NCBI GenBank assembly: GCA_964356705.1
Contig: CAYHIN010000001.1
Span: 3,066 to 67,065 of the forward strand
Reading direction: 5' to 3'
Length of the DNA: 64,000 bases
Source: an uncultured Gammaproteobacteria bacterium
GTDB lineage: Bacteria > Patescibacteriota > Microgenomatia > CAZETR01 > Amesbacteraceae
Part shown: positions 273-23,880 of the stretch, one piece after another
How positions within the stretch are numbered: position 1 is the stretch's first letter
Layout of the letters: every line of letters begins with the position of its first letter
Program-made: the position numbers and the translations under genes
Notes under the pieces: model-generated
What the model was told of the DNA's origin: nothing
The model's database searches: none
Seen by the model: the letters and a program-made list of their open reading frames with translations, nothing else

Positions 273-989
273 TCACCTCGCCAAGACCAGTCCCCAAACA
301 TTTTTAACTCCCGCTTTTTTCAGCACCCTTGCACATTCGCTCATAGTCGCCCCCGTCGTCCACACGTCATCCACCAACAACACATTTTGTCCCCTCTCCA
401 GAATTGTGGAGAGGGGCTGGGGTGAGGTGACAAAAGCGTTGACCATACTTTCCAAACGCTCCTCTCTCGTCCTTCCCACCTGCCTACCCGTATCCTTTGT
501 TCTTATTAATAAATTCCTCACTTCCAACTGATTCACAGATTCACTGATTAACTTAGCTATTATCTCCGCTTGATTAAACCCTCTTTCAGCCAGTCTTTTA
601 GGATGTAGTGGCACAGGCACAACCACGGGCCTCGCCTCGCCGAAGCTATAAGCGAAGGCGGTCTTATCATCCAAAATTCTCTTTATATATTCAAATTCGA
701 CCCTATCTTCAAAATCAGTGATTAGTTGTCCCAAATAGTCATACAGATGATAGTACTTAGCCTTAGAAATCAGTTTTTTAGTCAGCCCCTCATACGCCCA
801 CAAGCATGTCAGTCCATTCAGTGGCCCCTTACAATACGAGTGTCTCAGGCCATACCTACTATTTCGCCGGCATGAGGGACATATCTGCTCCTCTTCCCAC
901 ATTCCCACTTCACAAGTGCTACATACATATCTGCCCAGTTTCCCACACGACACACACTTTTTAGGAAAGATCAAATCTAACCAAGACAC
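273..989 (-). CDS. ComF-like / phosphoribosyltransferase family protein
   Basis: N-terminal Cys4 zinc finger (CVSCG...CSTC...CPSC). C-terminal PRTase motif VLLVDDVWTTGAT. Confidence 0.75.
   Translation of the reverse strand: MSWLDLIFPKKCVSCGKLGRYVCSTCEVGMWEEEQICPSCRRNSRYGLRHSYCKGPLNGLTCLWAYEGLTKKLISKAKYYHLYDYLGQLITDFEDRVEFEYIKRILDDKTAFAYSFGEARPVVVPVPLHPKRLAERGFNQAEIIAKLISESVNQLEVRNLLIRTKDTGRQVGRTREERLESMVNAFVTSPQPLSTILERGQNVLLVDDVWTTGATMSECARVLKKAGVKNVWGLVLAR
392..428. repeat. dispersed palindromic element family A (CCCTCTCC-N7-GGAGAGGG-N3-5-GGGTGAGGT), copy 1 of 4, inside comF-like CDS
   Basis: Other copies at 20709-20743, 20940-20974 and 22048-22084. Confidence 0.8.
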
Positions 990-1042
990 TCAGCAAGTAT
1001 AAGTAGTGTCTCCCTCTTAGAGTAAGAGGGAGATTAAGAGGG

Positions 1043-1458
1043 TGATATTTGTGGAGATGGAGGGAATTGAACCCTCGTCTGATTAAGGATTGAGTTTCAG
1101 TTGTTACAAGCTTGTCTGGCTTTTAAGAAAGCTAGCAAAAATGATTGACTTCTCTTGATCTAACCGCGATCAATCAATCTTAGTTAGAAGCATCTCGATT
1201 GGTTGTCACTTCAAACTACAGTCGAGAAAATAGTTTGAAATGCCAGTTAAGCTGCGTACGCGTAAACGCGAGCGGAGCGAGGCTGGGAGCTGACGGCGGA
1301 AGCCATGTCAGATCCGATTACTCGGAACCTAGAGGCCACGACGTTAGCCGTGTTGACGAAAGCGTCGACACTTAACTTTTGAACCTGTTTTACGAGTGTT
1401 GTTCAAACTCGGCTTGCTGAAATTTCAAAGGGCTTAGTCATCGATGCCTAGCATCCCC
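1043..1458 (-). ncRNA. ssrA: tmRNA (ssrA)
   Basis: On the minus strand the 5' GGGGATG pairs with the 3' CATCTCC(A), which is preceded by a T-arm GAGGG-TTCAATT-CCCTC. An internal reading frame ends ...YAYAA-TAA. It lies immediately downstream of smpB on the same strand. Confidence 0.7.
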
Positions 1459-1504
1459 AACTAGCCTCAGATTATAGCAAAGACAAGCCACTTTTTCAAG
1501 TTTA

Positions 1505-1951
1505 TTACTTCATCTCCCTCTCCATATCCCGCTCCACATCAGCCTGCTTGATACTCTCTCTTTTTTCATACTTTTTCTTCCCTCGAGCCAATCCCAGCTC
1601 CAGCTTCACTTTCCCATCTTTTGTATACATAGCCGTAGGCACGAGGAGTAGCCTGGACTGTTTCATTTTTGAAGCCAGTTGCACTATCTCCTTTTGATGC
1701 AAAAGCAGCTTGCGTTCATGCCCCGGGTCATAATTGGTGTTATCCGCGTGTTTATAAGGATAGATGTGGATATTGATACTAAATACCTCCATCGCTCCAA
1801 ATTTGGATGTCCTGATCTTGGCATACGCATTTCCTAGATCCACTCCTCCCGCCTTGGCCGATTTCACCTCAGGTCCTGTCAGGACTATCCCTGCCTCAAC
1901 CCTCTCCGCGATGTCGTAGTTAAATCTAGCTTTTTGATTAATGACCCTCAC
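1505..1951 (-). CDS. smpB: SsrA-binding protein SmpB
   Basis: 148 aa. MRVINQKARFNYDI...GIVLTGPEVKS is a canonical SmpB N-terminus. Confidence 0.9.
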   Translation of the reverse strand: MRVINQKARFNYDIAERVEAGIVLTGPEVKSAKAGGVDLGNAYAKIRTSKFGAMEVFSINIHIYPYKHADNTNYDPGHERKLLLHQKEIVQLASKMKQSRLLLVPTAMYTKDGKVKLELGLARGKKKYEKRESIKQADVERDMEREMK

Positions 1952-3434
1952 TGATATAGATTTTACTGCCTACTGCAACATATATCACTTCTTCCTCACT
2001 TACTACTAGATCCGTGGCCCCTTTTAGTAGTTCATTCTTCAGTTGTGATTCATATTTACCCGTCTTATCCAAGATCACGATTCTCTCTTTTTCTGGATCC
2101 AAGACATACAGCTTTTCCACTTCATCCGAAGTGTAGACCACACTATTTTGTCCCAGCTCGGTGTCTAGTCCACTTATACTAAAGCTGTCTTTTACTCCTC
2201 TGGTATATTTTAGGATTTCGGATTTCGAGTTTAGAGTTTTTACCATCCAAATACTGCCATCAATACTCATTCCTTTCGCACCTACAGCCTTCTCCTGATC
2301 TTCCCCTACCCATTTCATTTTGGTTCCATACCCAGCATCAGTCACGGGATATCGCCATATTTCACCGTCTGTTGCCACTCCATATATGTTTCCCGCAAAC
2401 ATTCCAATGTCCACTATTCCCTCACCCATCTGCTCAGCAGTAATCACCTGTTTACACTTCGCATTCCCCGTGTCACACTGCACTCCTCCTTTATCCCCGA
2501 ACACAACTACTCGCCCAGGATAAGTAGCGAGAGCCACCGGCTTTCCAACAGCGTCAGCTCCAGCCACCACACTACCACTTTTCTTTTTGATATCCACATT
2601 TACCAGTCTCGACTCGTTTGTATCTATCCCCCACAGTTTTCCCCCTATCAGGCTTATTTTCAATACCCTCATTCCCTCTCTTATCAGTCCCCAGTCAATA
2701 AGTTCGGAAAGCTCAGTTCGGTTTACTCCATAAGCTTTTTCTATCAGGCCCGGTATTTTCTCCCTGACAGTCTTCACCCTGTCCTCAAAATCTTTCCCAG
2801 AAAAGTTCTCCGCCCTAGTCTTCAGAGCTTCCAATTTTCCAGCATCAGTAGAGTTGGATCCAAACTCACTCCACATACTCTCTACCTCCTGAAAATCAGC
2901 GCTTTTTTTCAGATCAGTTTCCGCCCGTCTATACCCCCCGACCCCAAACAAGATTACTCCCAATACCAAAAATCCCAATCCTATATAGATAGTCTTTTTT
3001 ATCTTTTTTCCCCCATCCATATCGTGTCTATAAGCCAATCCCATCTTTATTCTTTCCACCCACTTCATCACATCCACTCGAGGCAAGCTCAAACCTCTTG
3101 GTTTTTTCACTTTAGGATTTAGGATTTCGTGCTTAGAGTTTATAAATTCAACTTCAGATTCATTCACAAAGATTTTCAGATCAGGTGATACTCTTCCCTC
3201 AAACACCCGCACCCGATCTTCCCCAGGCGTCAGCATCACTTTGTTCCCCATCTTCAATATTTCTACTTTTACATTTTTGGCTCCCACGTAAGCTCTTTCT
3301 CCCATTATTTCCACCACTCCCACTCGCCCAAACCGGCCCACGATCCATCCCAGCCTGTCTTTTATCCCCGCTGGCCCATCCTCCCCATCATACAAATTCT
3401 CAATCTCACTTTTCTTTACCCCATACACCCACAT
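1938..3434 (-). CDS. membrane-anchored hypothetical protein, possible extracellular beta-propeller
   Basis: 498 aa with a single TM (IYIGLGFLVLGVILFGVGGY) after a cytoplasmic N-domain. Contains two heptamer-repeat insertions (family B). Confidence 0.55.
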   Translation of the reverse strand: MWVYGVKKSEIENLYDGEDGPAGIKDRLGWIVGRFGRVGVVEIMGERAYVGAKNVKVEILKMGNKVMLTPGEDRVRVFEGRVSPDLKIFVNESEVEFINSKHEILNPKVKKPRGLSLPRVDVMKWVERIKMGLAYRHDMDGGKKIKKTIYIGLGFLVLGVILFGVGGYRRAETDLKKSADFQEVESMWSEFGSNSTDAGKLEALKTRAENFSGKDFEDRVKTVREKIPGLIEKAYGVNRTELSELIDWGLIREGMRVLKISLIGGKLWGIDTNESRLVNVDIKKKSGSVVAGADAVGKPVALATYPGRVVVFGDKGGVQCDTGNAKCKQVITAEQMGEGIVDIGMFAGNIYGVATDGEIWRYPVTDAGYGTKMKWVGEDQEKAVGAKGMSIDGSIWMVKTLNSKSEILKYTRGVKDSFSISGLDTELGQNSVVYTSDEVEKLYVLDPEKERIVILDKTGKYESQLKNELLKGATDLVVSEEEVIYVAVGSKIYISEGH

Positions 3435-3457
3435 ACAATTATATTAGCACTCAGCAC

Positions 3458-3706
3458 CTACAACCACAGAATAGCCACAATCAGAACTAGTACTGTGAGC
3501 AAAAAATGCACTCTGGACAAAAGTTTTACCGTCCCATTTATATCCTCCTCGATCGAATCGGTCATAATCGACACCTGCTTGATCACAACCAATGCAAAAA
3601 AACCATACATCACCACTCCCAACACAAAAAATATCTTGACCAAAAGCATCGGTCCAGTTGATACCAAACCTCGGATTGCATCTACTACTGCCGGATCGGT
3701 CATCAT
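3458..3706 (-). CDS. small membrane protein
   Basis: 82 aa with two hydrophobic helices. Tightly packed against its neighbour. Confidence 0.45.
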   Translation of the reverse strand: MMTDPAVVDAIRGLVSTGPMLLVKIFFVLGVVMYGFFALVVIKQVSIMTDSIEEDINGTVKLLSRVHFLLTVLVLIVAILWL

Positions 3707-3707
3707 G

Positions 3708-4391
3708 TTATTCTCCTCTCTCCCTTCTCTTTTCGAGCTCTTCAGATAACTCCGAGATTATTCTGATAGCCCGGTCCGGAAATGGTACCGCCAGCCCTTC
3801 TACCACCTGGTGTTCAGCCGCCGTTTCTACGTGTAGATCTCCAAAATCAAACATATGTCTAAAAAATCCTCCCGTGATCGCCGTTGGCTGCTCAATATGA
3901 TTTAAGTTGGCATACGATACATGCCGGTATAACAAGTTATGAAAATCGATATCTACTATTCGCTCATTAGTGATAACCAGTACCGAGTAATACCACTTCA
4001 AAAATCGCTCTAAGGTAATCCCCATAGTTACCAGGTACCACACCATCTTGCCTACCCACACATATTCAAACGGCACCGGAGCAAAAATCCCCGTCATGCT
4101 TAGTACTTCTGGCAAAACTAGCATCCCAAGGACCATGAGTATCCAAGTCAGGTTCGTAATCGGATGAGCGCGCAATAGCAGCACTATCTCTTCATCTCCT
4201 TGCTGGTTTACAAACTTTTTCCCCGGTCGCACACAATACGCCCCCATACATTCTCTTCCTCCCTTTTCTCCCACCCGCCCGAGCACCTCATCTACTACTG
4301 TCTTATGATGTTTTGCACCAGACTGAGACACAGGAGTAGAAACCACAGGAGGCACTACTTTTCCATCTTGAGCAACATACACCTCCGGCAT
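3708..4391 (-). CDS. membrane protein with bacterial PH (bPH_2/YdbT-like) domain
   Basis: TM helices followed by ...VLVITNERIVDIDFHNL..., which resembles DUF304/bPH. Confidence 0.45.
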   Translation of the reverse strand: MPEVYVAQDGKVVPPVVSTPVSQSGAKHHKTVVDEVLGRVGEKGGRECMGAYCVRPGKKFVNQQGDEEIVLLLRAHPITNLTWILMVLGMLVLPEVLSMTGIFAPVPFEYVWVGKMVWYLVTMGITLERFLKWYYSVLVITNERIVDIDFHNLLYRHVSYANLNHIEQPTAITGGFFRHMFDFGDLHVETAAEHQVVEGLAVPFPDRAIRIISELSEELEKRRERGE

Positions 4392-4537
4392 GACTATATT
4401 TTACACCCTCGTCATTCAAACTAATAAGTCGTGAGCAGATGGAGGTATCCCGTTTTTGCGCCCGCAGCGGTGCCGGCAGCGACCAGGCTGCGAGGACGCA
4501 TAAAAATGGGGTACCGAATCCGCGCAACGACAAAAGT

Positions 4538-6358
4538 TTACTTTTTTTCTATATTAAACAATCCACTCTTCACAGCCAGTGTCCCCGGCGCCCGCAAATT
4601 AAAGGCTTTCTTAAAGTTAACCCCCGATATCACCACTTCTCCTCTATTAGTCTGCAGTATCACCTGATCCGTATACCCGTTACTACTGTGTTTCACCGAC
4701 ACGCCCGAGACAGAAGTCACCCTTCCCCCATGTTTATCCGCCTCTTGTGCCATCCTGTCCTTAGACCACGGATTATCAGATCCTCCGTAGCAGGACCGCA
4801 CATCTTCCGGAAATACTCCGCTCATATCCCCGCCATTAGAAACCACAATCGCCGCATTTATCATGTCCGAAAATTCATCCATTTTGAGCCACGGATGAGA
4901 TCTCCCACACGTCTTTCCCGATCGGTCCTTGTACCAGCCTTTATAAAACCAGGGCGATCCTCCCACCTTTTCCCAAGCCCCCGATGCCCAGTTAGTCCAG
5001 TCAGAAGTGGTATCCCAAAACCCAGGTGTAGTATGTCCAATACTCGTGTAGCTGTCTTGATGTCCTCCCGAAGTCGATGCGTACCAAGTATTTACTATTT
5101 CTCCACTAGTCTTTGAGACCACGATCTCTCCTTCCGTTTGTGACACCGCGTCTCCCCATCTTCCCGGATTTCCAGATTTACTACTACTGTATACCTGGCA
5201 CGCCTCGGTCGTACATATCGATCCATTCGCGTTCTGATTACCTATTCTCCATCCTGTATAAGACAGCGCGTATGACCGGGCCGCAATCGCCTGGGCTTTC
5301 ATCGCCTCAAATCCCCCCTGATCCGCCCACGAGGTCGGCATCTCGGCAATCCCTCTCAGATATTTGCCTTCAAATGCCAGCGTCCCGGCACTAGTTTTGA
5401 TTACACCCGGCATACTCACTTTTCTGATTTCTACGTTTCCATAGTAGGCTTCCAATATTTGTTTGTAGTTTTGTCCCGACTTGGCCCGACCATATGCCCC
5501 GTATTGACTCATGCCTTTATAGTGCGGCGCCCCAAATGAAAACATCGCAAATGCCGGTGAGAATCCCGGATTATAGTCGGGTCTGGCAGCCGGATCATCA
5601 GCCAGTGGCACATCCCCTACCGACGTCGCATAAGTTCCAGTTTTAGAAGCCAGTAGTGACTGTTGCCTGGCGGTAAGTGACGCGATTTTTCCTCCTAGAT
5701 CCGACTGATATTTACTCGCTTTGTCCACTTCCACTTGCAAAAAAGCTGCTTGTTTATCCACTCTCGTCTTCAGCCCGTCCAGATTTGTTTTTTGAGTTTT
5801 GAGACTTGTGGCTTGGGCATTGAGATTTGTTATTTCTCCTCCCACCGACACGATCAGTTCCCGGTCTTGTCTAGCTAGTTTTTCTCGGTAAAACAGGTCC
5901 TTAAAAAATTCCGATGCACTCTTCGCCGAAAATAGCACCATCATCATCGACTGTTCCCTTCTTCTTATATAGTCTTGTTTTAGTTTAGCCGCCATCAGCT
6001 GCTCTTTTACTCCGACCTTCACTTCTCGCTCAAATATGTCTTTAGTCAGTTTATCTAGCCGTGTATCTAGTCCCGTTATTTGGGACTTGAGATTTGTGGT
6101 TTGGGATTTGAGCCCATTCAACTCTTTCACATTTGTTGAGTTGGCTTTGGATATCGCATCCAGTATTCCCGAGTATTTACTAATACACCCCGATATCACA
6201 CTAGAGTCCGACAGCTTGCTCGGATCATCGCACTCCTCCGCCCACACTCCTCCCACGCCCAGCATACAAAAGGCAAGGAAAAACAATACATAATACTTTA
6301 TACGTAATACGTGATACACAAGTCTCGGCATTGACTGTATTTTACATGTTAAACTCAA
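4538..6358 (-). CDS. SpoIID/LytB-domain protein with N-terminal coiled coil
   Basis: Signal/TM, long coiled coil, then the EAMKAQAIAARSYALSYTGW motif typical of SpoIID/LytB amidase enhancers. Contains family B and D repeat insertions. Confidence 0.6.
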   Translation of the reverse strand: MSLTCKIQSMPRLVYHVLRIKYYVLFFLAFCMLGVGGVWAEECDDPSKLSDSSVISGCISKYSGILDAISKANSTNVKELNGLKSQTTNLKSQITGLDTRLDKLTKDIFEREVKVGVKEQLMAAKLKQDYIRRREQSMMMVLFSAKSASEFFKDLFYREKLARQDRELIVSVGGEITNLNAQATSLKTQKTNLDGLKTRVDKQAAFLQVEVDKASKYQSDLGGKIASLTARQQSLLASKTGTYATSVGDVPLADDPAARPDYNPGFSPAFAMFSFGAPHYKGMSQYGAYGRAKSGQNYKQILEAYYGNVEIRKVSMPGVIKTSAGTLAFEGKYLRGIAEMPTSWADQGGFEAMKAQAIAARSYALSYTGWRIGNQNANGSICTTEACQVYSSSKSGNPGRWGDAVSQTEGEIVVSKTSGEIVNTWYASTSGGHQDSYTSIGHTTPGFWDTTSDWTNWASGAWEKVGGSPWFYKGWYKDRSGKTCGRSHPWLKMDEFSDMINAAIVVSNGGDMSGVFPEDVRSCYGGSDNPWSKDRMAQEADKHGGRVTSVSGVSVKHSSNGYTDQVILQTNRGEVVISGVNFKKAFNLRAPGTLAVKSGLFNIEKK

Positions 6359-7359: not shown

Positions 7360-7378
7360 TCGTGCTACACTTTAACTC

Positions 7379-7723
7379 ATGGCCAGTCCACTGTGTGTTC
7401 CATCAGGTGCAACCGGAAATCTAGGTGTCTCTACTCCTTTTGGCTGTCTACCCTTTGGTGGCAATGCAGGTCCTGCTACCCCGATGATCACTGTTTTAGT
7501 AAATTGGAGCGTGGGTCTAGCCGCAGGCGTAGCTCTCCTCACTCTTATTTATGCCTCTTTTCAGATCGTCACCGCCGCAGGTGACGCCAAGCGCGTCCAA
7601 GCCGGCCGCGAGTTAGTAACTGCCAGCATCGGCGGTCTGATCTTAGTCGTCATGGGTATAGTTATCCTTAATTTTTTAGGTGTCAGCGTCCTAGGATTGG
7701 ACGCTCTAGGCTTTAAGATATAA
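7379..7723 (+). CDS. VirB2/TrbC-like T4SS pilin paralog
   Basis: Two TM helices separated by the loop AAGDAKRVQAGRE. Near-duplicate of the C-terminus of the 6331 ORF. Confidence 0.6.
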   Translation: MASPLCVPSGATGNLGVSTPFGCLPFGGNAGPATPMITVLVNWSVGLAAGVALLTLIYASFQIVTAAGDAKRVQAGRELVTASIGGLILVVMGIVILNFLGVSVLGLDALGFKI

Positions 7724-7733
7724 TTGTAAGCAC

Positions 7734-8036: not shown

Positions 8037-8039
8037 CTT

Positions 8040-8363: not shown

Positions 8364-8366
8364 CAG

Positions 8367-8729
8367 ATGAAGCTACTCGCCCAACAATTCGGTACTGTTG
8401 AAAATCCCTTTCTACCCAAATATTACAATGTTCCCGGATATATAGGGTTTTCCCAGGGCCAAGGTCTTATCATTCTTCTCAATAATCTTGTCAAATTCAC
8501 CATCGTCCTTGCGGGCCTCTACACTTTTTGGAACATCATCGCCGCAGGCTTTATGTTCATGTCCGCGGGTGGCGAAGCAAAAAACATTACCAAAGCCTGG
8601 GACAAGATCTGGCAATCACTCATTGGTTTGTTATTAGTAGCCGCTTCCTTTATACTTGCGGCCGTATTCGGATATCTGATCTTTGGTGATACTAAAGCGT
8701 TATTACAACCTCGAATATTTACCCCATGA
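8367..8729 (+). CDS. VirB2/TrbC-like T4SS pilin paralog
   Basis: TM - SAGGEAKNITKAWDKI - TM. Confidence 0.55.
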   Translation: MKLLAQQFGTVENPFLPKYYNVPGYIGFSQGQGLIILLNNLVKFTIVLAGLYTFWNIIAAGFMFMSAGGEAKNITKAWDKIWQSLIGLLLVAASFILAAVFGYLIFGDTKALLQPRIFTP

Positions 8730-9100: not shown

Positions 9101-9102
9101 AT

Positions 9103-9764: not shown

Positions 9765-9821
9765 TTCCTTAGTACTTTGCACTTAGCTCTTAGCACTATA
9801 TAATAAACTTAATGAAGGGAG

Positions 9822-10626: not shown

Positions 10627-10640
10627 TATATAATAGTTCC

Positions 10641-16847: not shown

Positions 16848-16851
16848 AACT

Positions 16852-19629
16852 CTATCTTCTTTTTCCTCTCATCCATGCAAACATTCTCCCCAGACCTGTG
16901 TCGTTCCATGAGTCTTCAGACATGTCCCAAAACTCTCTTTGTCCTGTGCGTGTATTTCTTCCAGCCCCTAACCATACAGGCAAACCAAGCACTGCAGCCT
17001 TTGTGGATAGAGTAATTTTAGGAAGTGTACCACTTCTCAACGCCTTCAATAGCTCATCAATCCCTCCTTTTCCCGACTTTCTATTCATTTCATCAGCAGC
17101 ATCATCGTTACCATCACGCAAATTACCTATGTCATCCATCGTATCGTCAATTTTTGCATAACCAGCATAAACACCTTGTAATGGTTTCGCATTCACTATT
17201 GTCGCCTCGTCTGCTGTCGGGTCATAATCTTCTGCTTCCTCCAAAGTCGCAACTACTCCAAATAAATCCTCTACTCCCCGCTCAGATACAACCCTAGCCA
17301 AATACCCCACTCCGCCAACATCTCCATTCTTATCGCCATGTTTCATCTTTTCCAATGGAGACTTGCACGCTCCTTCCTTTGAAAATGGTATCCATTTATT
17401 CGGATCATATTTACCTAAAATTTCCGATTGTGCATTTTTGATAACATCTCTTGTCTTTTTTTCAGCCTCAATTTCCCGATTCAGTTTTTCCCTTTTTGCA
17501 GCACTCAAATCTTTATCTTCCAACTGTCGCTCGATCTTAAATATTTTTACTTCTTGAAGCAGCCTCTCTGTTTCCGATCTTCTCCAAATATCGGAGTCCT
17601 TCCTTACTTCTACTAAATCAGTAGGTAAACCTGACACTCCCTCATATACTCCTGGATTAATCACTGGGTTCCACAACGCCTGATGTGTGTTGATCATTTT
17701 TCTATATTCCACCATTTCCGGCCCAAGCGCCAAGAGCTTAGCAAGTTCTCTCATTGATCCCACTCTTACTTCATCCATACCATCAAATCTGGCCATCATA
17801 TCCTTCCCAATCTGGTTCATTCTTGCTTTAACGGCTGTATGCAGTAGCTTATTGTGACCCTTCCTCATCATATCCTGAAGTTCACCCTGATACTCAGCCA
17901 CAAAGCTTGCCTGTTCTGCCGACAAATCTCCAACCTCTTGGCCACACAGTGCCAACCACATTCTAAGAGAATCTTTAGCGATTTCATCATTTGAATAAGC
18001 CCTGAAAGTTTCTTTCAAATTAAACGATGTCTGATTCAACGCACCCTCCTGCACATCTCTATCTAGAGCCTTAGATCCACCACCCAAACTATTCCAAGTT
18101 CCTTGATCTTTTGCCCTTATCGTCATCAGCTTAAACACCCCACCAGTCAACAATTCATAAGCATTCATCGCTCTCTCAGTCACTCCTACTCGATCGACGC
18201 TTCTTCCCTCAGCTCCAGCCAAAGCTTTTTCTTCTTCCACTAGACCTCTTGTTATAGCTTCCAATCGAATCCCTGGCGCTTCTCCAATCTTAAAAGCTGT
18301 AGCAATTACTACTCTTGTGCTCTTCATGACCAACTCCATCCCCTCTGCACCAGTCTCTGTCACGAATAAAAACTTAGGTAATCCATGTGCCACCAAAAAT
18401 TCATCATTCACCAACTCTTGACTCACATCTGTTTCATCCTCTTTTGGACCATACCTACTAAAGGACTCTTGTCCTACACTACTTCTTGCTTGAGACCGAC
18501 CATTTAATATTCCATTTTGGGGTTTTATTGCTTTTCTTATAGTAACCCCAGGATCAACTGATTCGTCAGTCATACTCACCAACAAATTAGCTGTCGTCAG
18601 TTTTAAGTCACCAAGGTTGAGGTATTTTTGCCTATCTTTTTGCTGTTCAAGCTCTCTTGCATCATATGGCCTTTTGGCGCGCTTTAACGCCTCAAGCTGG
18701 GCCACCACCAGATTTGTCTGCACCCCTTCAAGCCATAAATCAACTACTGATTCATATTTGCCATCTTTCCACCCATTGACCTTTCTATATTCAGCCAATT
18801 CTCTACAATAGGCCGCTGCTTGTTCAACGGGAGGATCGCTACTCACTATCCCCAAGGCCATATCCCGATTCCATTCACGCATAATTTCAGTAAATCTTTG
18901 GCCAACGAGGGAGTTTATTTTCGCAAAGGCGTTATCAGCTTCAGCGGCAGCCACCAATTCCTTTCTCCTCCTAATAAGACCGTTATCACGTAAGATATTA
19001 GGGTCTTTTGAAAAATCGCTTCTCAGCTCGTCACTCAACGCATCCCATTCATAATAGGTTTTGATATCACTTTCATAAATGCTTTTATCCATTTTTGCGT
19101 CAAAATCTCTTAATATTGTTCCGCCTTTTCCAGCCCCCATTGCCACTTCCATCCGCCTCAGTTGATATTCTACCCACTCCAGATATACATCTTTATTTGC
19201 AATATGCTTCTCGTCCAGCTTTTTCTCACAAGCTTCCAATACTGACTTTATAATTTTCACCAGATCTTTAGCACCAAAACCCTTCACTTTTCCACTCTCA
19301 TTTACCCGTATCGCCTCTATCCAAGTTTTTCGAACTTTACTTTCAACAATCTCTCCCAACCCTTCTACTTGGGCTTCTTCACCCACCTGCATTAACCACT
19401 CAGTTGCTTTTGCACTCTCAGGTCCACCTTTTCGAGCCGTATCTCTTACTTGTTCGTACGAAGGAGAAGGTGCAGATTCTTTCACACCGGCGATTCCTCT
19501 ATATTCGGGAGCATGTATTCTTGTCACTTCTTCAGCAGTGGAAGGAGCCCGCTTTCGCGAACCTCCCAATCCCTCAATATCTGGCGCACTTAATCTTTCA
19601 GGTATCATAAATTCTCCAAAATCAGGCAT
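16852..19629 (-). CDS. large acidic hypothetical protein (925 aa), no TM, no recognizable motifs
   Basis: Single long ORF on the opposite strand, embedded within the T4SS-like cluster. Confidence 0.6.
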   Translation of the reverse strand: MPDFGEFMIPERLSAPDIEGLGGSRKRAPSTAEEVTRIHAPEYRGIAGVKESAPSPSYEQVRDTARKGGPESAKATEWLMQVGEEAQVEGLGEIVESKVRKTWIEAIRVNESGKVKGFGAKDLVKIIKSVLEACEKKLDEKHIANKDVYLEWVEYQLRRMEVAMGAGKGGTILRDFDAKMDKSIYESDIKTYYEWDALSDELRSDFSKDPNILRDNGLIRRRKELVAAAEADNAFAKINSLVGQRFTEIMREWNRDMALGIVSSDPPVEQAAAYCRELAEYRKVNGWKDGKYESVVDLWLEGVQTNLVVAQLEALKRAKRPYDARELEQQKDRQKYLNLGDLKLTTANLLVSMTDESVDPGVTIRKAIKPQNGILNGRSQARSSVGQESFSRYGPKEDETDVSQELVNDEFLVAHGLPKFLFVTETGAEGMELVMKSTRVVIATAFKIGEAPGIRLEAITRGLVEEEKALAGAEGRSVDRVGVTERAMNAYELLTGGVFKLMTIRAKDQGTWNSLGGGSKALDRDVQEGALNQTSFNLKETFRAYSNDEIAKDSLRMWLALCGQEVGDLSAEQASFVAEYQGELQDMMRKGHNKLLHTAVKARMNQIGKDMMARFDGMDEVRVGSMRELAKLLALGPEMVEYRKMINTHQALWNPVINPGVYEGVSGLPTDLVEVRKDSDIWRRSETERLLQEVKIFKIERQLEDKDLSAAKREKLNREIEAEKKTRDVIKNAQSEILGKYDPNKWIPFSKEGACKSPLEKMKHGDKNGDVGGVGYLARVVSERGVEDLFGVVATLEEAEDYDPTADEATIVNAKPLQGVYAGYAKIDDTMDDIGNLRDGNDDAADEMNRKSGKGGIDELLKALRSGTLPKITLSTKAAVLGLPVWLGAGRNTRTGQREFWDMSEDSWNDTGLGRMFAWMRGKRR

Positions 19630-19705
19630 TGTCCAATTATACCGTACCCAGGCTAATTTGGCCGCCGGCCATAAAACAACAAGCCGTGCCCCAAAACATC
19701 AGTTT

Positions 19706-19927
19706 CTAATTGCTTATAAGTCTTCCATCTTCAAACCAGCTTGCTTCAAAATACTCCTTAAAGTGTTCTTCTTCAGGTCTTTGTTGTGCATTGGCACAGT
19801 AGTCCTCAAATTTCTCGCTGCATGAAACATGCTGTACATGACTACCTATCTGTCGTTTTTTCACAAAACCAGCTCTTTTCAGAATTTTTAACATCTCTTT
19901 CGGTTTCATCGAGGGCAGATTTCCCAT
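19706..19927 (-). CDS. HicA-like mRNA interferase toxin (divergent C-terminus)
   Basis: KPKEMLKILKRAGFVKKRQIGSHVQH matches the HicA/YcfA N-terminal motif. Confidence 0.45.
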   Translation of the reverse strand: MGNLPSMKPKEMLKILKRAGFVKKRQIGSHVQHVSCSEKFEDYCANAQQRPEEEHFKEYFEASWFEDGRLISN

Positions 19928-20196
19928 ACACTACACTGCACTGCAAATCTTGGTCCAGTCACATTTACTGGAACCACAAAACTGTTCTCATCAGGCTCAG
20001 GAATCTCCTCACCATCCTCCTGCAATACTCGCAAGTATCCACCAATCGCATCTCTCGCCATCTCGATGGCCAACTCATAAGTATCACCTTCAGTCACAAG
20101 TCCTGGCAATTTAGGCACAGTCACAGTGAAACCACCCTCCTCACAAGGTTCAAAAACCGCATTATATTTCAGTACTTTTACTACACTTTTACTCAC
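19906..20196 (-). CDS. HicB-like antitoxin
   Basis: YNAVFEPCEEGGFTVTVPKLPGLVTEGDTYELAIEMARDAI matches the HicB/UPF0150 N-domain. Overlaps the HicA-like ORF by 22 nt. Confidence 0.55.
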   Translation of the reverse strand: MSKSVVKVLKYNAVFEPCEEGGFTVTVPKLPGLVTEGDTYELAIEMARDAIGGYLRVLQEDGEEIPEPDENSFVVPVNVTGPRFAVQCSVWEICPR

Positions 20197-20279
20197 ATCA
20201 TCATTTTAACATTTTAATACAATTAGATTAATCCCAATCAAAAAACAATAGTTAACATTTCGGATATAATCAAATCAAT

Positions 20280-21338
20280 ATGGAGCAACATGCAGTTCCT
20301 CAAAACATATCGTCGTACGAATTTCGCCTAGTAGGAGACATGACTCTCAAGCAGTTCTTTCAGCTGGCAGGCGGCATTGTTTTAGGGGTCGTCATTTTTC
20401 GCCTCCCCATTCCCGTTTTTATCAAATACCCTCTTGTTTTTATCTCAGTCATCGTGGGTGTTCTCATGGCCTTTGTTCCCATCAACGGTCGCCCTTTCAC
20501 CGCCTGGATCACTGCTTTTTTTAGAGCTATCTATGCTCCCACCGAATTTTTATGGGCTCCGGATACAGAGATTCCAGTTGCCAGCAACATTGCACCCATA
20601 ATTAGCGCCACCTCTCCTTTTCATTCCACCACCACAAATTCAAACACCCCGTCCACGCTTAGCGTGGACAAAGGAACGCTTAGCGTTCCAGCTCCAACTC
20701 AAAAAATTCCCTCTCCTGGATCAGGAGAGGGCAAGGGTGAGGTTTTGAAGGAAATACCCATGACTCCCGTAGTTTCCATGCCGAAACCTACAACCAAAGA
20801 AACTACTTTCAGTTCCTACACGCCACCACCTGCTACGCTTAGCGTAGCAAAAGGGACGCTTAGCGTTCCCAAACCAGTCATTGAACCAAAGTCAGTCATA
20901 GAACCCAAACCAATTTCTCCTATACAAGTTCCCTCTCCTGAATCAGGAGAGGGCCAGGGTGAGGTCGTCGGCCCCGTCACCCAACCTCTAAAAAAACCAG
21001 TCCCAGAGATCAATCTTCCCCAAGTTCCAGCAGCATCCAGCGCGACATCAGAGACCCAAAACGTTCCCACTCCCACTCAACCAAATGTCCTGGCCGGCAT
21101 GGTCACTGACCGTTCTGGAACAGCTATCGAATCTGCCATAGTCGAAATTATCGATAGTGTCACCCAGATTCCAGCCAGAGCCTTACGCACAAATCGCACC
21201 GGTCTCTTTCAGATTGTTACTCCTTTGAAGCCATCTAGTTACCAGGTCATAGTCGAAAAAGAAGGCCTTACATTTCCTCCAGTCAGCATCGTGGCAAATG
21301 GAAAAATTATCCAACCCATAATCATTAAAGCCACATGA
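20280..21338 (+). CDS. VirB3-like membrane protein with C-terminal extension (tandem 70-aa repeats plus CarboxypepD_reg-like beta-sandwich)
   Basis: N-terminal two TM helices as in VirB3/PrgI. Internal duplication TLSVxKGTLSVP...PSPxSGEGxGEV. C-terminal GMVTDRSGTAIESAIVEIID... Confidence 0.5.
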   Translation: MEQHAVPQNISSYEFRLVGDMTLKQFFQLAGGIVLGVVIFRLPIPVFIKYPLVFISVIVGVLMAFVPINGRPFTAWITAFFRAIYAPTEFLWAPDTEIPVASNIAPIISATSPFHSTTTNSNTPSTLSVDKGTLSVPAPTQKIPSPGSGEGKGEVLKEIPMTPVVSMPKPTTKETTFSSYTPPPATLSVAKGTLSVPKPVIEPKSVIEPKPISPIQVPSPESGEGQGEVVGPVTQPLKKPVPEINLPQVPAASSATSETQNVPTPTQPNVLAGMVTDRSGTAIESAIVEIIDSVTQIPARALRTNRTGLFQIVTPLKPSSYQVIVEKEGLTFPPVSIVANGKIIQPIIIKAT

Positions 21339-22003
21339 AACCCTCTACACAATCCCATTTAGATATCTACGACATCCAAAACGATCTACTGATCCTCAAG
21401 GACGGCTCAGTGTGTCTCCTCTTGGAGGTCTCCGCTATCAACTTCGGCCTCTTCTCCGAAAGAGAGCAAGAAGCCACCATTTATGCATATGCTCAGTTGC
21501 TCAATTCTCTCAATTTTACGATCCAAATAGTCATCACCAGCAAAAGAAAAGATATTACTGATTATCTAGACAAGCTCGAGGTCAGGCTATCATCTGCCCC
21601 TTCCCCAAAGATCAAAGACCAGCTTCTCAAATATCGCGATTTTATAAAGTCCATCGTCCGCCAGGGTAATGTCTTGGACAAGAAATTTTTCATTTCCATC
21701 CCCTTCTCGTCTCTGGAATTAGGTGTCAGCTCAGCTCTCAGTGCTTTTTCAAAAAAACCCACCAAGCCCCTCTCTCCTATCCCCACGATAGTCGAAAGAG
21801 CCACAAACAATCTCACTCCCAAACGAGATCATTTGATCAGATTGTTAGCCCGGATCGGCCTCAAATCTCGCCAGCTCGGAACCCTTGAGCTTCTCCAATT
21901 GTTCTATGACTCCTACAACGCCACAGATTTGGGTACCAAGGTGACACTTCCCATACAAGCAGGTGTCATCCTGAGCGAGCGTACACCTAAACCAACATCA
22001 TGA
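21335..22003 (+). CDS. probable N-terminal fragment of VirB4-family ATPase
   Basis: DIQNDLLILKDGSVCLLLEVSAINFGLFSEREQEATIYAYAQLLNSLNFTIQIV resembles the N-terminal region of Gram-positive VirB4 homologs. ATGA overlap with the following ATPase ORF. Confidence 0.45.
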   Translation: MKPSTQSHLDIYDIQNDLLILKDGSVCLLLEVSAINFGLFSEREQEATIYAYAQLLNSLNFTIQIVITSKRKDITDYLDKLEVRLSSAPSPKIKDQLLKYRDFIKSIVRQGNVLDKKFFISIPFSSLELGVSSALSAFSKKPTKPLSPIPTIVERATNNLTPKRDHLIRLLARIGLKSRQLGTLELLQLFYDSYNATDLGTKVTLPIQAGVILSERTPKPTS

Positions 22004-23880
22004 AATTCCCAACTCTCAAAATCCCAAACATAAAGAAAAGTCATCTACCCTCTCCTGGCGAAGGAGAGGGACCGAGGGTGAGGTTAACAGAGCCAGTCTC
22101 AAAAAAATCCCTCACCACCGCCAAAACTGTCCGCGACATCATCGCCCCTTCCTCTATCTCCATCGATTTCAACTATCTCAGACTTGGCGATCTCTACTAC
22201 CGCACCTACTTCACAAATATCAATCGCCGCTTTGTCGATGCCAACTGGCTCTCAGCTCTCATCAATTTCGACCATTCGCTCAACATCTCTATGTTTATTT
22301 ATCCCGTCGAAAGCAAAAGCACTCTCGATGATCTCAGAAGAAAAATCGCCGAAATGGAAGCCGAGATCAGTACCGATATGCAAAGAGGCCGTGTCGTCGA
22401 TCCCTCGACCCAAGCTAAGCTCGAGGACGCCCTTTCTCTCCAAGACCAGCTGGTCAAAGGCATTGAACGTTTCTTTCAGTTTTCCCTCTATGTTACGATT
22501 CCTGCCGAATCCTCATCAGAGTTGGACAATGTCGCAAAACAGGTCACGAGCACTCTTTCCTCACTCCAGCTCACAGCCACTCCCGCCCTTCTGGAGCAAG
22601 CCGAGGGTTTCAAGACCACTCTCCCCACTTGCGTCGACCATTTGGGCGTTCTCCGCAACATGGATACTACATCCCTTGCTACTACTTTTCCTTTTACCTC
22701 ATCTGAGCTTTCCAGCAACGATGGTGTGCTATATGGTCTCAATGAGCACAACGGCAGTCTCGTTCTCTTTGATCGCTTTAGTCTAGAAAATGCCAATACG
22801 GTAGTCTTTGCCAAGGCTGGGGCTGGAAAAAGCTTCCTGGTCAAGCTCGAGATTCTAAGGTCGACCATGTTCGGCACCGAGATTATCATTATTGATCCCG
22901 AAAACGAATACAAAACTCTTTGTGAGGCCGTGGGTGGTGAATACATTAACTTCTCTTTCAATTCCCAAAACCGCATCAATCCTTTTGACTTGTCGCTTCT
23001 GACCCAATATTCCGACGAAAACGAGCTCAATCTCAAGATTCAGTCTCTCCACTCCCTCTTCAAAGTCATCATGGGCAACCTCAATCCTACCGAAGACGCC
23101 CTTCTCGACCGTGCTCTTACCCAGACGTACAAAATGAAGGGTATTACTCCGGACCCTGAGACTCAAAAAAAGACTCCTCCTCTTATGGAGGATCTCTACA
23201 AAGCCTTTGTGGGCATGGAAGACCCCGAAGCCAAGTCTCTGGCCGACCGCATCGAAAAGTTTGTCAAGGGTTCTTTTGCCGGCATCATCGACCAGCCTAG
23301 TAATATCACTCTCAAAAATCCCTTTACCGTCTTCTCTGTCCGTGATCTGGAGGATTCTCTCAAGCCTATCGCCATTTTTATTATTCTCGACTTCATCTGG
23401 ACCAAGATGAGACGCGACCTCAAAAAGCGCATTCTCGTCGTAGACGAGGCTTGGTATCTCATGCGCTATCCCGATTCCGCCGCCTTCTTATATGGTATTG
23501 CCAAGCGCGCCCGCAAGTATTTCCTCGGCTTGACCACTATTACCCAAGACGTCGAAGATTTTCTGGCTTCTGATTATGGCAAACCCATTGTCACCAACTC
23601 TTCTATTCAGATTCTCATGAAGCAGTCTCCTGCGGCAATTGACAAAGTCGCCCAACTCTTTTACTTGTCAGAGGGAGAAAAGCATCTCCTACTCTCAGCC
23701 AACGTCGGAGAAGGTCTGTTCTTTGCGGGCAACAATCACGTCGCCATCCGATTTGTAGCCAGTCCTGACGAATATCAGTTGATTACCACCAAGCCAGGCG
23801 ATATTCTAGCCAAACAGAAGACCGATGCTGAAAACGCAGTTCGTCTAGTTACTCAAGAAGAACCCACCCAAAATGCCTGA
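22000..23880 (+). CDS. virB4: VirB4/TrbE/ConE-family T4SS ATPase (C-terminal two-thirds)
   Basis: Walker A VVFAKAGAGKSFLVK and Walker B ILVVDEAWYLM. 626 aa; together with the upstream fragment about 848 aa, a typical VirB4 size. Confidence 0.8.
   Translation: MKFPTLKIPNIKKSHLPSPGEGEGPRVRLTEPVSKKSLTTAKTVRDIIAPSSISIDFNYLRLGDLYYRTYFTNINRRFVDANWLSALINFDHSLNISMFIYPVESKSTLDDLRRKIAEMEAEISTDMQRGRVVDPSTQAKLEDALSLQDQLVKGIERFFQFSLYVTIPAESSSELDNVAKQVTSTLSSLQLTATPALLEQAEGFKTTLPTCVDHLGVLRNMDTTSLATTFPFTSSELSSNDGVLYGLNEHNGSLVLFDRFSLENANTVVFAKAGAGKSFLVKLEILRSTMFGTEIIIIDPENEYKTLCEAVGGEYINFSFNSQNRINPFDLSLLTQYSDENELNLKIQSLHSLFKVIMGNLNPTEDALLDRALTQTYKMKGITPDPETQKKTPPLMEDLYKAFVGMEDPEAKSLADRIEKFVKGSFAGIIDQPSNITLKNPFTVFSVRDLEDSLKPIAIFIILDFIWTKMRRDLKKRILVVDEAWYLMRYPDSAAFLYGIAKRARKYFLGLTTITQDVEDFLASDYGKPIVTNSSIQILMKQSPAAIDKVAQLFYLSEGEKHLLLSANVGEGLFFAGNNHVAIRFVASPDEYQLITTKPGDILAKQKTDAENAVRLVTQEEPTQNA

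What the first reader, a model, noticed from the sequence alone, without database searches (positions are those of the whole stretch)
392..22084. Family A palindromic mini-element inserted in-frame into comF-like, virB3-like and virB4 genes
A roughly 36-nt element with an 8-bp perfect inverted repeat and a conserved 3' tail occurs 4 times (392-428, 20709-20743, 20940-20974, 22048-22084); the sequence is CCCTCTCC-loop-GGAGAGGG-GGGTGAGGT. Three copies lie on the plus strand in T4SS genes, where they encode PSPGSGEGKGEV-like peptides. The fourth lies on the opposite strand, in a different frame, inside the comF-like gene, where it encodes SPQPLSTILERG. The nucleotide sequence is conserved while the encoded peptide is not, so the element is a DNA-level mobile or recombinogenic unit that tolerates translation. 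This is analogous to Rickettsia palindromic elements, and I am not aware of it being described for this kind of genome.
Basis: seen in the sequence. Interest (0 to 1): 0.8.

Follow-up and report, generated by a model that had tools for sequence, protein, structure and literature searches.

The report
Known triplex-motif repeat inside CPR genes
The repeat is real, but it is the long-known pan-bacterial BoxC/PIT/"TM" intrastrand-triplex DNA motif; what is unusual is that in this tiny Microgenomates (CPR) genome it lies in-frame inside variable loops of conserved genes instead of between genes.

Summary
Four exact copies of CCCTCTCC-loop-GGAGAGGG-spacer-GGGTGAGGT are present (0.01 expected). The third is at 20931-20965, not 20940-20974. 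A fifth copy with different sequence but the same architecture lies at 1009-1045.

The "conserved 3' tail" is the mirror-image third strand of a purine-motif intrastrand triplex, with nine valid triads per copy. This is the BoxC/PIT/TM motif (Holder et al. 2015, PMC4666352). An exact-pattern scan found it in more than 120 loci from most bacterial phyla and in viral contigs, so it is not a new or lineage-specific element.

Four of five copies lie in-frame in ComF, PrgI (VirB3-like) and VirB4, and are read in three different registers. The unit is therefore a DNA-level one. All host sites are hypervariable segments.

The closest relatives lack the copies. More distant Microgenomates carry the motif at exactly the same ComF nucleotide position. 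Its arms are 100% conserved against near-saturated synonymous sites. One close relative has a different, triple-covarying variant at that site.

Mobility is unproven: I found no TSD, TIR or transposase.

Verdict: a new member of a known kind, in an atypical coding context. Moderate interest.

The parts
391..428 (+). TM copy 1. Pyrimidine arm CCCCTCTCC 391-399, loop 400-407, purine arm GGAGAGGGG 408-416, spacer CT, third strand GGGGTGAGG 419-427, followed by T. It lies antisense inside ComF and encodes aa 188-200, TSPQPLSTILERG.
1009..1045 (+). Arms are TCTCCCTCT 1009-1017, AGAGGGAGA 1025-1033 and AGAGGGTGA 1037-1045. It is intergenic, between the ComF start (989) and the tmRNA 3' end (1049).
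20709..20743 (+). TM copy 2. Arms are CCCTCTCCT 20709-20717, AGGAGAGGG 20723-20731, spacer CAA, and GGGTGAGGT 20735-20743. It is in sense orientation in the PrgI linker and encodes aa 144-155, PSPGSGEGKGEV.
20931..20965 (+). TM copy 3. It is 93% identical to copy 2 including the loop, and lies 222 nt downstream in the same PrgI linker. It encodes aa 218-229, PSPESGEGQGEV.
22048..22084 (+). TM copy 4. Arms are CCCTCTCCT / AGGAGAGGG / spacer ACCGA / GGGTGAGGT. It lies in the variable N-terminal extension of VirB4 and encodes aa 17-29, PSPGEGEGPRVRL. The 5-nt spacer shifts the register of the third arm.
273..989 (-). ComF-like gene (double zinc ribbon plus phosphoribosyltransferase). It hosts copy 1 in the hypervariable loop between the conserved 'AF' motif and the PRPP motif VLLVDDVWTTGAT.
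20280..21338 (+). PrgI (VirB3-like) gene. It has an N-terminal PrgI domain (aa 6-84), a Pro/Ser/Thr-rich linker that hosts copies 2 and 3, and a C-terminal CarboxypepD_reg domain (aa 271-330).
22000..23880 (+). VirB4-like ATPase gene. Its start overlaps the upstream TraC-like ORF by ATGA. It hosts copy 4, 48 nt into the CDS, ahead of the conserved AKTVRDIIAP block.

Best explanation
The elements are copies of the pan-bacterial G/C-rich purine-motif intrastrand-triplex repeat, known as BoxC, PIT element or TM/TMECO-class motif. Each copy has a pyrimidine arm, a loop, the complementary purine arm, a 2-5 nt spacer, and a G/T/A third segment that is the mirror image of the purine arm. The single strand can therefore fold into a hairpin with the third segment laid into its major groove through G.G-C, A.A-T and T.A-T triads.

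The unit is a DNA-level one. Its three arms are kept intact, while the loops, the spacers and the encoded peptides are free to vary.

In this compact Microgenomates/Amesbacteria-like CPR genome, copies survive both in short intergenic spacers and in-frame in the few protein segments that tolerate any sequence. Those segments are the ComF loop before the PRPP motif, the disordered PrgI linker and the VirB4 N-terminal extension. There they are simply translated as 12-13 residue loop filler.

Shown here:
- motif identity and triplex geometry;
- translation in different registers;
- absence of the copies in the nearest relatives;
- presence at the identical ComF nucleotide position in more distant relatives, with arms 100% conserved;
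- replacement by a triple-covarying variant in one close relative.

Inferred:
- Copies are propagated and renewed by intragenomic copying, gene conversion or local duplication, or by structure-provoked repair, rather than by a transposase.
- They have no protein-level function.
- Selection, or biased repair, acts on the structure-forming arms.
For: 1. All five copies have 9 of 9 permitted triads, and 30 shuffles gave 0 such motifs. The conserved final T of GGGTGAGGT pairs with the A that extends the purine arm (AGGAGAGGG).
2. The same arms are listed as the 23 TMECO/BoxC copies of E. coli K-12. They were shown to form a stable triplex in vitro by CD and NMR (PMC4666352).
Flanks are not conserved and loops vary. 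More than 120 viral contigs also carry the motif.
4. The host ORFs are intact, with conserved domains in frame on both sides of each copy. The peptides differ: PSPGSGEGKGEV, PSPGEGEGPRVRL and, antisense, TSPQPLSTILERG.
5. All host sites are hypervariable in orthologs. This holds for the ComF loop, the VirB4 N-termini and the PrgI linker. In the AF2 model of ComF (mean pLDDT 73.4) the element lies between strands 186-188 and 203-207.
6. The syntenic relatives L122, L123 and L124 (75-85% nt identity) lack all four coding copies.
7. ComF orthologs L207, L209 and L210 (57-61% aa identity) carry ACCTCACCC..CCCTCTCC..GGAGAGGG starting exactly 3 nt after the Phe codon. Their spacers differ in length, which changes the frame. 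The arms are 100% identical, whereas 4-fold-site identity elsewhere in the gene is 0.30-0.53 and overall nt identity is 0.63-0.68.
8. L127 is 83% nt identical to L209 and has near-identical flanks. At that site it carries CCCCCTCTT / AAGAGGGGG / GGGGGTGAT, so all three arms change together. Copy 5 of the window is a third covarying variant.
9. Loops look more alike within a genome than between orthologous copies. L207 has TAAATTA twice and TTAAATAA once. The window has TGGATCA and TGAATCA in copies 2 and 3, which are 222 nt apart and 93% identical.
Against: - Triplex formation in vivo has never been demonstrated. In vivo DMS footprinting in E. coli was negative (PMC4666352). The structure actually selected could be the hairpin alone or a G-quadruplex.
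- No copying mechanism is known for this family, and I found none.
- Comparisons with relatives do not give clean empty sites, so insertion, in-situ origin and replacement cannot be told apart.
- In E. coli, and in low-GC genomes of other phyla, the motif avoids ORFs. It lies in an ORF of at least 150 aa in 2 of 17 cases, against 78% of random positions (PMC5100583). The coding location here therefore departs from the family's usual behaviour.
- The patchy distribution rests on a low-resolution NJ tree and on peptide signatures.
- Only 64 kb of the genome was available.
Confidence: 0.75

Rival explanations
1. The repeat is a lineage-specific miniature mobile element, comparable to a MITE or a Rickettsia palindromic element, that transposes into genes of this kind of genome.
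For: The element is multi-copy and is conserved at the nucleotide level but not at the peptide level. It is absent at the orthologous sites of the closest relatives. Copies 2 and 3 are near-identical.
Against: Identical arms occur across most bacterial phyla and in viral contigs. The element is only 36 nt. It has no target-site duplication and no conserved flanks. No transposase or RAYT was found in the ORFs scanned. Holder et al. found no association with transposons, phages or plasmids in E. coli. Relatives do not show clean empty sites.
Confidence: 0.08
2. The relevant structure is an RNA or DNA hairpin, or the G-quadruplex/hairpin switch of Kaplan et al. On this view the element acts in cis on expression, for example through transcriptional pausing, antisense termination, mRNA processing or stability, or ribosome pausing at SD-like GGAG/GAGGT. 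The mirror third strand would be incidental.
For: The hairpins are strong. Copy 2 resembles an intrinsic terminator on the antisense strand. Copy 5 and the copies in L129, L136, L137 and L207 lie just downstream of tmRNA or just upstream of ComF. CD evidence supports a hairpin/G4 equilibrium for the E. coli copies (PMC5100583). Purine-motif triplexes cannot form in RNA, so any RNA-level role would have to come from the hairpin.
Against: The third arm covaries with the hairpin arms in three different sequence variants. Copy 5 (AGAGGGAGA..AGAGGGTGA) has only two G3 runs, so it is a poor G4 candidate, yet it keeps perfect mirror symmetry. The elements occur in both orientations relative to transcription. 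Only 1 of 5 looks like a terminator, and that one is antisense. PIT elements showed no promoter or terminator activity in E. coli.
Confidence: 0.12
3. The repeat encodes a functional peptide module, for example a flexible Gly/Glu/Pro-rich linker, that is selected at the protein level in T4SS and competence proteins.
For: Copies 2 and 3, and the PrgI orthologs P0271, P0280, P0320 and P0350, share a PSPxxGEGxxxGEV-type peptide in the same linker.
Against: The same nucleotides give unrelated peptides in VirB4 (GPRVRL) and in ComF (TSPQPLSTILERG versus TSPSVPLLNSGEG in orthologs). An intergenic copy exists. The motif is overwhelmingly intergenic in other phyla.
Confidence: 0.02
4. The repeat is a chance, compositional or assembly artefact.
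For: The + strand of the window has extreme C over G skew and is low-complexity in places.
Against: Four matches were found against 0.01 expected, and 30 shuffles gave 0 triplex motifs. An independent ENA assembly (L121) is identical across copies 2-4; its only 4 differences lie at the contig end. The motif is also present in finished genomes.
Confidence: 0.01

Closest known systems
BoxC / PIT element / TMECO, the G/C-rich class II intrastrand triplex motif (Bergler 1992; Hoyne & Maher 2000, 2002; Holder et al. 2015, PMC4666352)
   Same: The architecture is the same, and the arms are almost the same: E. coli has CCCTCTCCC-loop-GGGAGAGGG-loop-GGGTGAGGG. Shared features are the mirror-repeat third strand, variable loops with invariant arms, multi-copy dispersal, patchy presence among close relatives, association with locally variable DNA, and the absence of any known transposase.
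   Different: The arms here are shifted by one position (CCCTCTCCT / AGGAGAGGG / GGGTGAGGT). This is the 'GGGTGAGGT' subtype also seen in cyanobacteria, Chloroflexi and Bacteroidota, so the strict TMECO regular expression is not matched. Four of five copies are inside conserved protein-coding genes, whereas the E. coli copies are always intergenic. The host is a CPR bacterium, a group not covered in those studies.
Rickettsia palindromic elements (RPE; Ogata et al. 2000, cited from my own knowledge and not read here)
   Same: Both are palindromic repeats found in-frame inside conserved genes. Both are translated, and both are tolerated because they fall in surface or variable segments.
   Different: RPEs are about 100-150 bp, are restricted to Rickettsia, and have no sequence relation to this motif and no mirror third strand. 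The present motif is 36 nt and pan-bacterial.
REP/REPIN elements mobilised by RAYT transposases (GTAG/CGTC-tagged palindromes, Di Nocera et al. 2013, PMC3733652)
   Same: Both are short G/C-rich extragenic palindromes, often in inverted pairs. Symmetric TM doublets are seen in L044, L058, L068, L120 and L137.
   Different: There is no GTAG or CGTC tetranucleotide head, and no RAYT was found. The third mirror arm is not a REP feature.
G-quadruplex-hairpin-duplex switch motifs HPG1/HPG2 of E. coli (Kaplan et al. 2016, PMC5100583)
   Same: These are the same E. coli loci and sequence, interpreted as a G4/hairpin equilibrium. All of them lie outside ORFs.
   Different: This is a different structural reading. 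Copy 5 and the ComF-site variant of L127 keep mirror symmetry without four good G-runs, which favours the triplex description.

Membership tests
BoxC/PIT/TM intrastrand triplex motif (broad G/C-rich class II) | A pyrimidine arm and a purine arm form a perfect inverted repeat of at least 8 nt around a short loop. | tested here: met
   All 5 copies have 9-11 bp stems. DNA folding energy is -10.1 to -10.8 kcal/mol.
BoxC/PIT/TM intrastrand triplex motif (broad G/C-rich class II) | A third segment lies 1-6 nt downstream and is the mirror image of the purine arm (G.G-C, A.A-T, T.A-T triads). | tested here: met
   All 5 copies have 9 of 9 permitted triads, and 30 shuffles gave 0 hits. The third arm covaries in the variants at 1009-1045 and in L127.
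BoxC/PIT/TM intrastrand triplex motif (broad G/C-rich class II) | Dispersed multi-copy repeat with conserved arms, variable loops and unrelated flanks. | tested here: met
   There are 5 copies in 64 kb. Loops and spacers differ, and flanks are unrelated.
TMECO subtype (E. coli consensus CCCTCNCCC N3-6 GGGNGAGGG N3 GGGNGAGGG) | Exact match to the published 9-nt arm pattern. | tested here: not met
   The arms are register-shifted (CCCTCTCCT / AGGAGAGGG / GGGTGAGGT) and share 8 of 9 positions with the consensus. Spacers are 2-5 nt.
BoxC/PIT/TM intrastrand triplex motif | Intergenic location. In E. coli, all copies lie outside ORFs. | tested here: not met
   Four of five copies lie inside ComF, PrgI and VirB4. 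In other phyla, 2 of 17 low-GC copies lie in long ORFs.
BoxC/PIT/TM intrastrand triplex motif | The isolated strand folds into a triplex (CD, NMR, melting). | not testable with these tools
   This has been shown only for E. coli sequences (PMC4666352). ViennaRNA does not model triplexes.
Rickettsia palindromic elements | Palindromic unit of about 100-150 bp, restricted to Rickettsia, with family-specific sequence. | tested here: not met
   The element is 36 nt and is found in more than 120 loci of many phyla. The RPE definition comes from my own knowledge.
Rickettsia palindromic elements | In-frame presence inside conserved ORFs. | tested here: met
REP/REPIN-RAYT | A GTAG or CGTC tetranucleotide at one end of the palindrome. 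| tested here: not met
   The sequences read have none. The criterion is taken from the title and abstract of PMC3733652.
REP/REPIN-RAYT | A cognate RAYT (Y1 transposase) gene in the genome. | tested here: inconclusive
   None was found among about 30 ORFs scanned against Pfam, but only 64 kb of the genome was available.
MITE | Terminal inverted repeats flanked by a target-site duplication. | tested here: not met
   No direct repeats flank any copy.

The most novel reading that the evidence does not exclude
In Microgenomates, triplex-motif repeats may behave as exchangeable cassettes at fixed, permissive positions of competence and T4SS proteins (the ComF loop, the PrgI linker and the VirB4 N-terminus). 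On this reading, structure-provoked repair or gene conversion repeatedly overwrites the site with whichever TM variant dominates that genome. This would keep all three arms perfect while the host gene diverges, and would continuously reshuffle surface-exposed loops. The orthologous, triple-covarying copies inside genes would then be the first comparative evidence that triplex potential itself, not just a hairpin, is maintained in vivo.
Probability: 0.12. Interest if true: 0.7.

Novelty: new member of a known kind. Interest (0 to 1): 0.42.

Why it matters
After thirty years, the BoxC/PIT/TM motif is still a repeat without a known function or mode of spread, and triplex formation in vivo has not been shown. 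Copies embedded in conserved genes offer something intergenic copies cannot: a precisely alignable orthologous site with a neutral yardstick, namely the synonymous sites of the host gene.

At the ComF site the three arms are invariant while 4-fold sites are near saturation. A close relative carries a variant in which all three arms change together. A systematic version of this comparison across the thousands of CPR ComF, PrgI and VirB4 genes could test two things. The first is whether the third strand is under constraint. The second is whether copies are inherited, converted or re-inserted.

In practical terms, annotators should know that the short odd peptides in CPR proteins (PSPxxGEGxGEV, TSPxPLSxxERG, KTGSFGAPQDDV) are translated DNA repeats, not protein motifs.

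Tried and rejected
- Rfam at gathering thresholds found only the tmRNA and tRNA-Cys, with nothing at the elements.
- The terminator scan flagged only copy 2, and on the antisense strand. Copies 1, 3, 4 and 5 were not flagged, so a terminator role was dropped as a general explanation.
- I looked for target-site duplications and conserved flanks and found none.
- I looked for a transposase or RAYT and found none in about 30 ORFs. The only mobile-type gene is a free-standing LAGLIDADG ORF at 60559-61329.
- I tried to obtain clean empty sites from the syntenic relatives L122, L123 and L124. The elements are absent there, but the surrounding variable segments have also diverged. Net length differences are about +9 nt in ComF, and about +12 and +19 nt at the two PrgI copies in the MAFFT alignments. 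The VirB4 alignment is too unreliable upstream of the element to give a figure. Insertion could not be separated from replacement.
- I considered a 222-nt tandem duplication in PrgI as the origin of copies 2 and 3. The flanking ACGCTTAGCGT hairpin pairs are present at both positions in L123 without the TMs. The TMs therefore arrived, or were lost, independently of that older duplication.
- Literature searches of the open-access library for CPR or in-frame reports of this motif found nothing. This is absence of evidence only.

Full report
**1. The observation**

Reading the sequence at the stated coordinates shows four elements of the form CCCTCTCC, a 7-8 nt loop, GGAGAGGG, a 2-5 nt spacer, and GGGTGAGGT. 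A pattern search for the inverted-repeat part finds exactly four matches, at 392, 20709, 20931 and 22048, against 0.01 expected from dinucleotide-preserving shuffles.

Pfam identifies the host ORFs:
- 273-989(-) has a phosphoribosyltransferase domain plus a double zinc ribbon, so it is ComF-like.
- 20280-21338(+) has a PrgI (VirB3-like) domain plus a C-terminal CarboxypepD_reg domain.
- 22000-23880(+) is a VirB4/TraG P-loop ATPase.

Conserved domains lie in frame on both sides of every copy. In ComF the essential VLLVDDVWTTGAT motif lies just downstream. The VirB4 start overlaps the preceding ORF by ATGA, and no alternative start follows the element before the conserved AKTVRDIIAP block. The copies must therefore be translated.

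The peptides are PSPGSGEGKGEV, PSPESGEGQGEV, PSPGEGEGPRVRL (a 5-nt spacer shifts the register) and, on the other strand, TSPQPLSTILERG.

**2. What the element is**

These hold 158 copies. The hosts include Pseudomonas, Xanthomonas, Enterobacter, Acinetobacter, Bradyrhizobium, Bifidobacterium, Nostoc, Oscillatoria, Chloroflexi, Planctomycetes, Verrucomicrobia and many others. With 24 specified bases, well under one chance hit is expected. Flanks are unrelated and loops vary, but the arms are invariant. The element is therefore not specific to this kind of genome.

A full-text search for the two G-rich arms led to Holder et al. 2015 (PMC4666352). This is the BoxC repeat of E. coli, rediscovered as the "potential intrastrand triplex" (PIT) element by Hoyne and Maher and renamed TM/TMECO. 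The 23 E. coli K-12 copies read CCCTCTCCC-loop-GGGAGAGGG-loop-GGGTGAGGG.

Read antiparallel to the purine arm, it gives G.G-C, A.A-T and T.A-T triads.

I wrote a generic finder for this geometry: a pyrimidine arm, a complementary purine arm, and a mirror third arm in which G pairs with G and A pairs with A or T. It recovers the four copies, each with nine permitted triads. This explains the conserved final T of GGGTGAGGT, which pairs with the A that extends the purine arm to AGGAGAGGG.

The finder also reveals a fifth element at 1009-1045. Its arms differ in sequence (TCTCCCTCT / AGAGGGAGA / AGAGGGTGA) but the architecture is identical. It lies between the ComF start and the tmRNA 3' end. Thirty shuffles of the window gave no hits. 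As single-stranded DNA, the hairpins fold at -10.1 to -10.8 kcal/mol.

According to the literature:
- The isolated strand forms a stable triplex in vitro.
- In vivo DMS footprinting was negative.
- No promoter or terminator activity was found.
- No link to transposons, phages or plasmids was found in E. coli.
- Copies are always intergenic.
- TM loci are unusually variable among E. coli strains.

Kaplan et al. 2016 (PMC5100583) describe the same loci as a G-quadruplex/hairpin switch, and again report none inside ORFs.

**3. Genomic and evolutionary context**

The window is from a Microgenomates/Amesbacteria-like CPR bacterium from Hainich groundwater. ComF and VirB4 homologues carry those names. 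An independent ENA contig, L121, is identical over 9.2 kb apart from four end bases.

Two syntenic relatives were retrieved:
- L122, whose VirB4 is 94% identical at the protein level.
- L123 and L124, from GCA_964543035.1, at 75-85% nt identity.

Neither relative has a triplex motif at any of the four coding sites. They are not clean empty sites, however, because the surrounding variable segment has also changed. The net length difference is about +9 nt in ComF, and about +12 and +19 nt at the two PrgI copies in the MAFFT alignments; the VirB4 alignment is too unreliable upstream of the element to give a figure.

All host sites are hypervariable among orthologs:
- ComF: the 10-22 residue loop between 'AF' and VLLVDDV.
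- VirB4: an N-terminal extension of very variable length and Pro-rich composition.
- PrgI: a Pro/Ser/Thr-rich linker.

An AlphaFold2 model of ComF (mean pLDDT 73.4) places the element-encoded residues 188-200 between strands 186-188 and 203-207. They form a loop with one helical turn.

**4. The ComF site in other lineages**

DNA from more distant Microgenomates ComF genes (57-61% aa identity) shows the same element in the same orientation. These are L207 (Gr01-1014_16), L209 and L210. In each, the element starts exactly 3 nt after the Phe codon of the AF motif. The spacers are 3 or 5 nt, so the hairpin is read in different frames: TSPLPLSLFKERE, TSPSVPLLNSGEG and TSPSIPLLNLGEG.

The three arms are 100% identical among the four genes. 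Elsewhere in the gene, 4-fold degenerate sites are 30-53% identical and overall nt identity is 63-68%. Neutral descent cannot explain this. Either the arms are constrained, or the site is repeatedly rewritten.

L127 supports an active process. It is 83% nt identical to L209 and has nearly identical flanks. At that site it carries a different triplex motif, CCCCCTCTT / AAGAGGGGG / GGGGGTGAT. All three arms have changed in concert and mirror symmetry is preserved.

On an NJ tree of 120 ComF orthologs with the loop masked, the three loop states (TM-type, variant-TM and TM-free) are interleaved. This tree has low resolution, and the loop classes are inferred from peptides.

Other ComF loops contain each genome's own heptamer tandem repeats or other hairpins. 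The site evidently accepts whatever short repeats the genome produces.

Similar recurrences are seen in the other host genes:
- PrgI linkers of other Amesbacteria carry PSPKLGEGNSRGEV. This is confirmed as a TM at the DNA level in L331.
- The VirB4 N-terminus of L208 carries a TM with an extended second loop and a duplicated third strand.

Within genomes, loops tend to resemble one another. L207 has TAAATTA twice. In the window, copies 2 and 3 are 93% identical and 222 nt apart. This hints at intragenomic copying.

**5. How unusual is the coding location?**

I used the heuristic "lies in an ORF of at least 150 aa".
- In low-GC loci of other phyla, 2 of 17 copies qualify, against 78% of random positions.
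- In low-GC viral contigs, 20% of copies qualify, against 80% of random positions.
- In this window, 4 of 5 copies are in bona fide conserved genes.
- In the other Microgenomates loci retrieved, roughly half of the copies are in genes. Examples are ComF in L127, L207, L209 and L210, and a Dus gene in L209. The rest lie in short spacers next to ComF, tmRNA or smpB.

So the motif is normally excluded from genes. The CPR genomes examined are an exception. A plausible reason is that they have little intergenic space and many proteins with tolerant linkers.

**6. Mechanism**

Best-supported account, confidence about 0.75: this is a structure-forming DNA repeat of the BoxC/PIT/TM class. Its three arms are maintained at the nucleotide level. 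It is tolerated, and translated as filler, in permissive protein segments. It turns over through local duplication, gene conversion or re-insertion rather than through a transposase.

The steps shown and the steps inferred are listed in the Best explanation section.

Rivals:
- A lineage-specific MITE- or RPE-like transposon. The evidence against is the pan-bacterial distribution and the absence of TSD, TIR and transposase.
- A cis-regulatory hairpin or G-quadruplex. This is not excluded. However, the third arm covaries even in variants that lack four G-runs. The orientation relative to transcription varies. Only one copy looks like a terminator, and that one is antisense.
- A functional peptide. 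This is excluded by the frame differences.
- An artefact. This is excluded.

**7. Verdict**

The element is a member of a family described three decades ago and is not peculiar to this lineage. "Mobile" remains unproven.

Three things appear to be new, within the limits of an open-access literature search:
- in-frame residence of the motif in conserved CPR genes;
- persistence at an identical nucleotide position across divergent lineages, with invariant arms;
- a concerted three-arm variant swap between close relatives.

This gives a handle on the old question of whether triplex potential is maintained in vivo. Interest is moderate, at 0.42. Novelty: a new member of a known kind, in an atypical context.

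Noticed in passing
window 39233-39264 and 42997-43028 (also degenerate at 52253-52284, 36057-36081, 34440-34472): This is a second palindromic mini-repeat family, GTCATCCTGAGGCGCACCGAAGGATCCAG. Two copies are 32/32 identical. One is intergenic, between rplY (L25) and leuS. The other lies in-frame on the antisense strand inside TsaD (42316-43386, minus strand). There it encodes KTGSFGAPQDDV, just before the conserved ALVISGGHT motif. So in-frame translated DNA repeats are a general feature of this genome and are not limited to the triplex motif.
   Followed up: partly
window 20651-20689 and 20832-20870; L123 about 8410-8450 and 8600-8640: Pairs of ACGCTTAGCGT-type hairpins lie in the PrgI linker and encode (S/A)TLSV(D/A)KGTLSV. 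They include GTCCACGC-TTA-GCGTGGAC, GGAACGC-TTA-GCGTTCC, GCTACGC-TTA-GCGTAGC and GGGACGC-TTA-GCGTTCC. The relative L123 has hairpins at the same positions with compensatory stem changes, for example CTACGC/GCGTAG versus CCCCGC/GCGGGG. L123 has no triplex motifs next to them.
   Followed up: partly
window 6285-6320, 28164-28207, 29504-29539, 33092-33149, 35826-35861, 36790-36833 (ATACNTN heptamers); 5792-5837, 6080-6111, 28760-28791, 30630-30661 (TTGNGAT heptamers); 2209-2242, 3111-3144, 34758-34805: Several families of 7-nt-period tandem repeats are scattered through the window. At least one cluster, at 6080-6111 and 6285-6320, falls inside listed ORFs, and I did not check whether the others are intergenic. 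The same kind of heptamer repeat (AATTCAA, GATACNN, AATTCGC and others) fills the ComF variable loop in other CPR genomes (L128, L130, L131, L139, L141, L146, L166). This shows that the loop absorbs each genome's own short repeats.
   Followed up: partly
window 1-64000: GC skew is strongly negative in every 2-kb bin, from -0.07 to -0.42, whichever strand the genes are on. It does not change sign at dnaN and dnaA (28209-30914, minus strand) or at the adjacent spacer, which is about 700 nt in the relative, where an origin would be expected. All five triplex motifs have their G-rich strand on the C-rich + strand.
   Followed up: no
viral contigs L211-L330, e.g. L215 (5 copies in 7.3 kb, all on one strand), L265, L261: The GGGTGAGGT subtype of the triplex motif is common in IMG/VR viral contigs. 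Several copies lie in long ORFs (L215, L225, L267). This differs from the statement for E. coli that the motif is not associated with phages, and it suggests a possible route of horizontal spread.
   Followed up: partly
L129 801-836, L136 4950-4986, L137 4937-4989, L207 9068-9102 and 9947-9981; window 1009-1045: In several Microgenomates lineages, triplex motifs recur in the short spacer immediately upstream of ComF. In the window that spacer is the tmRNA-ComF spacer. In L207 one copy also lies in the spacer before smpB. L137 has a symmetric double element.
   Followed up: partly
window 19706-20196 (-): A HicA/HicB toxin-antitoxin pair lies directly upstream of the PrgI-TraC-VirB4 cluster, according to the gene calls for L121.
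   Followed up: no
window 60559-61329 (+), next to tRNA-Cys 60469-60540 (-): A free-standing LAGLIDADG-type homing-endonuclease-like ORF. In the related locus L331, the VirB4 gene itself carries an intein with a LAGLIDADG domain.
   Followed up: no
L123 8040-10000: In the relative GCA_964543035.1, the PrgI ortholog and the first 90 or so codons of VirB4 were not called as genes, although the DNA aligns. Short antisense ORFs were called instead. This may reflect frameshifts or assembly errors in that MAG.
   Followed up: no
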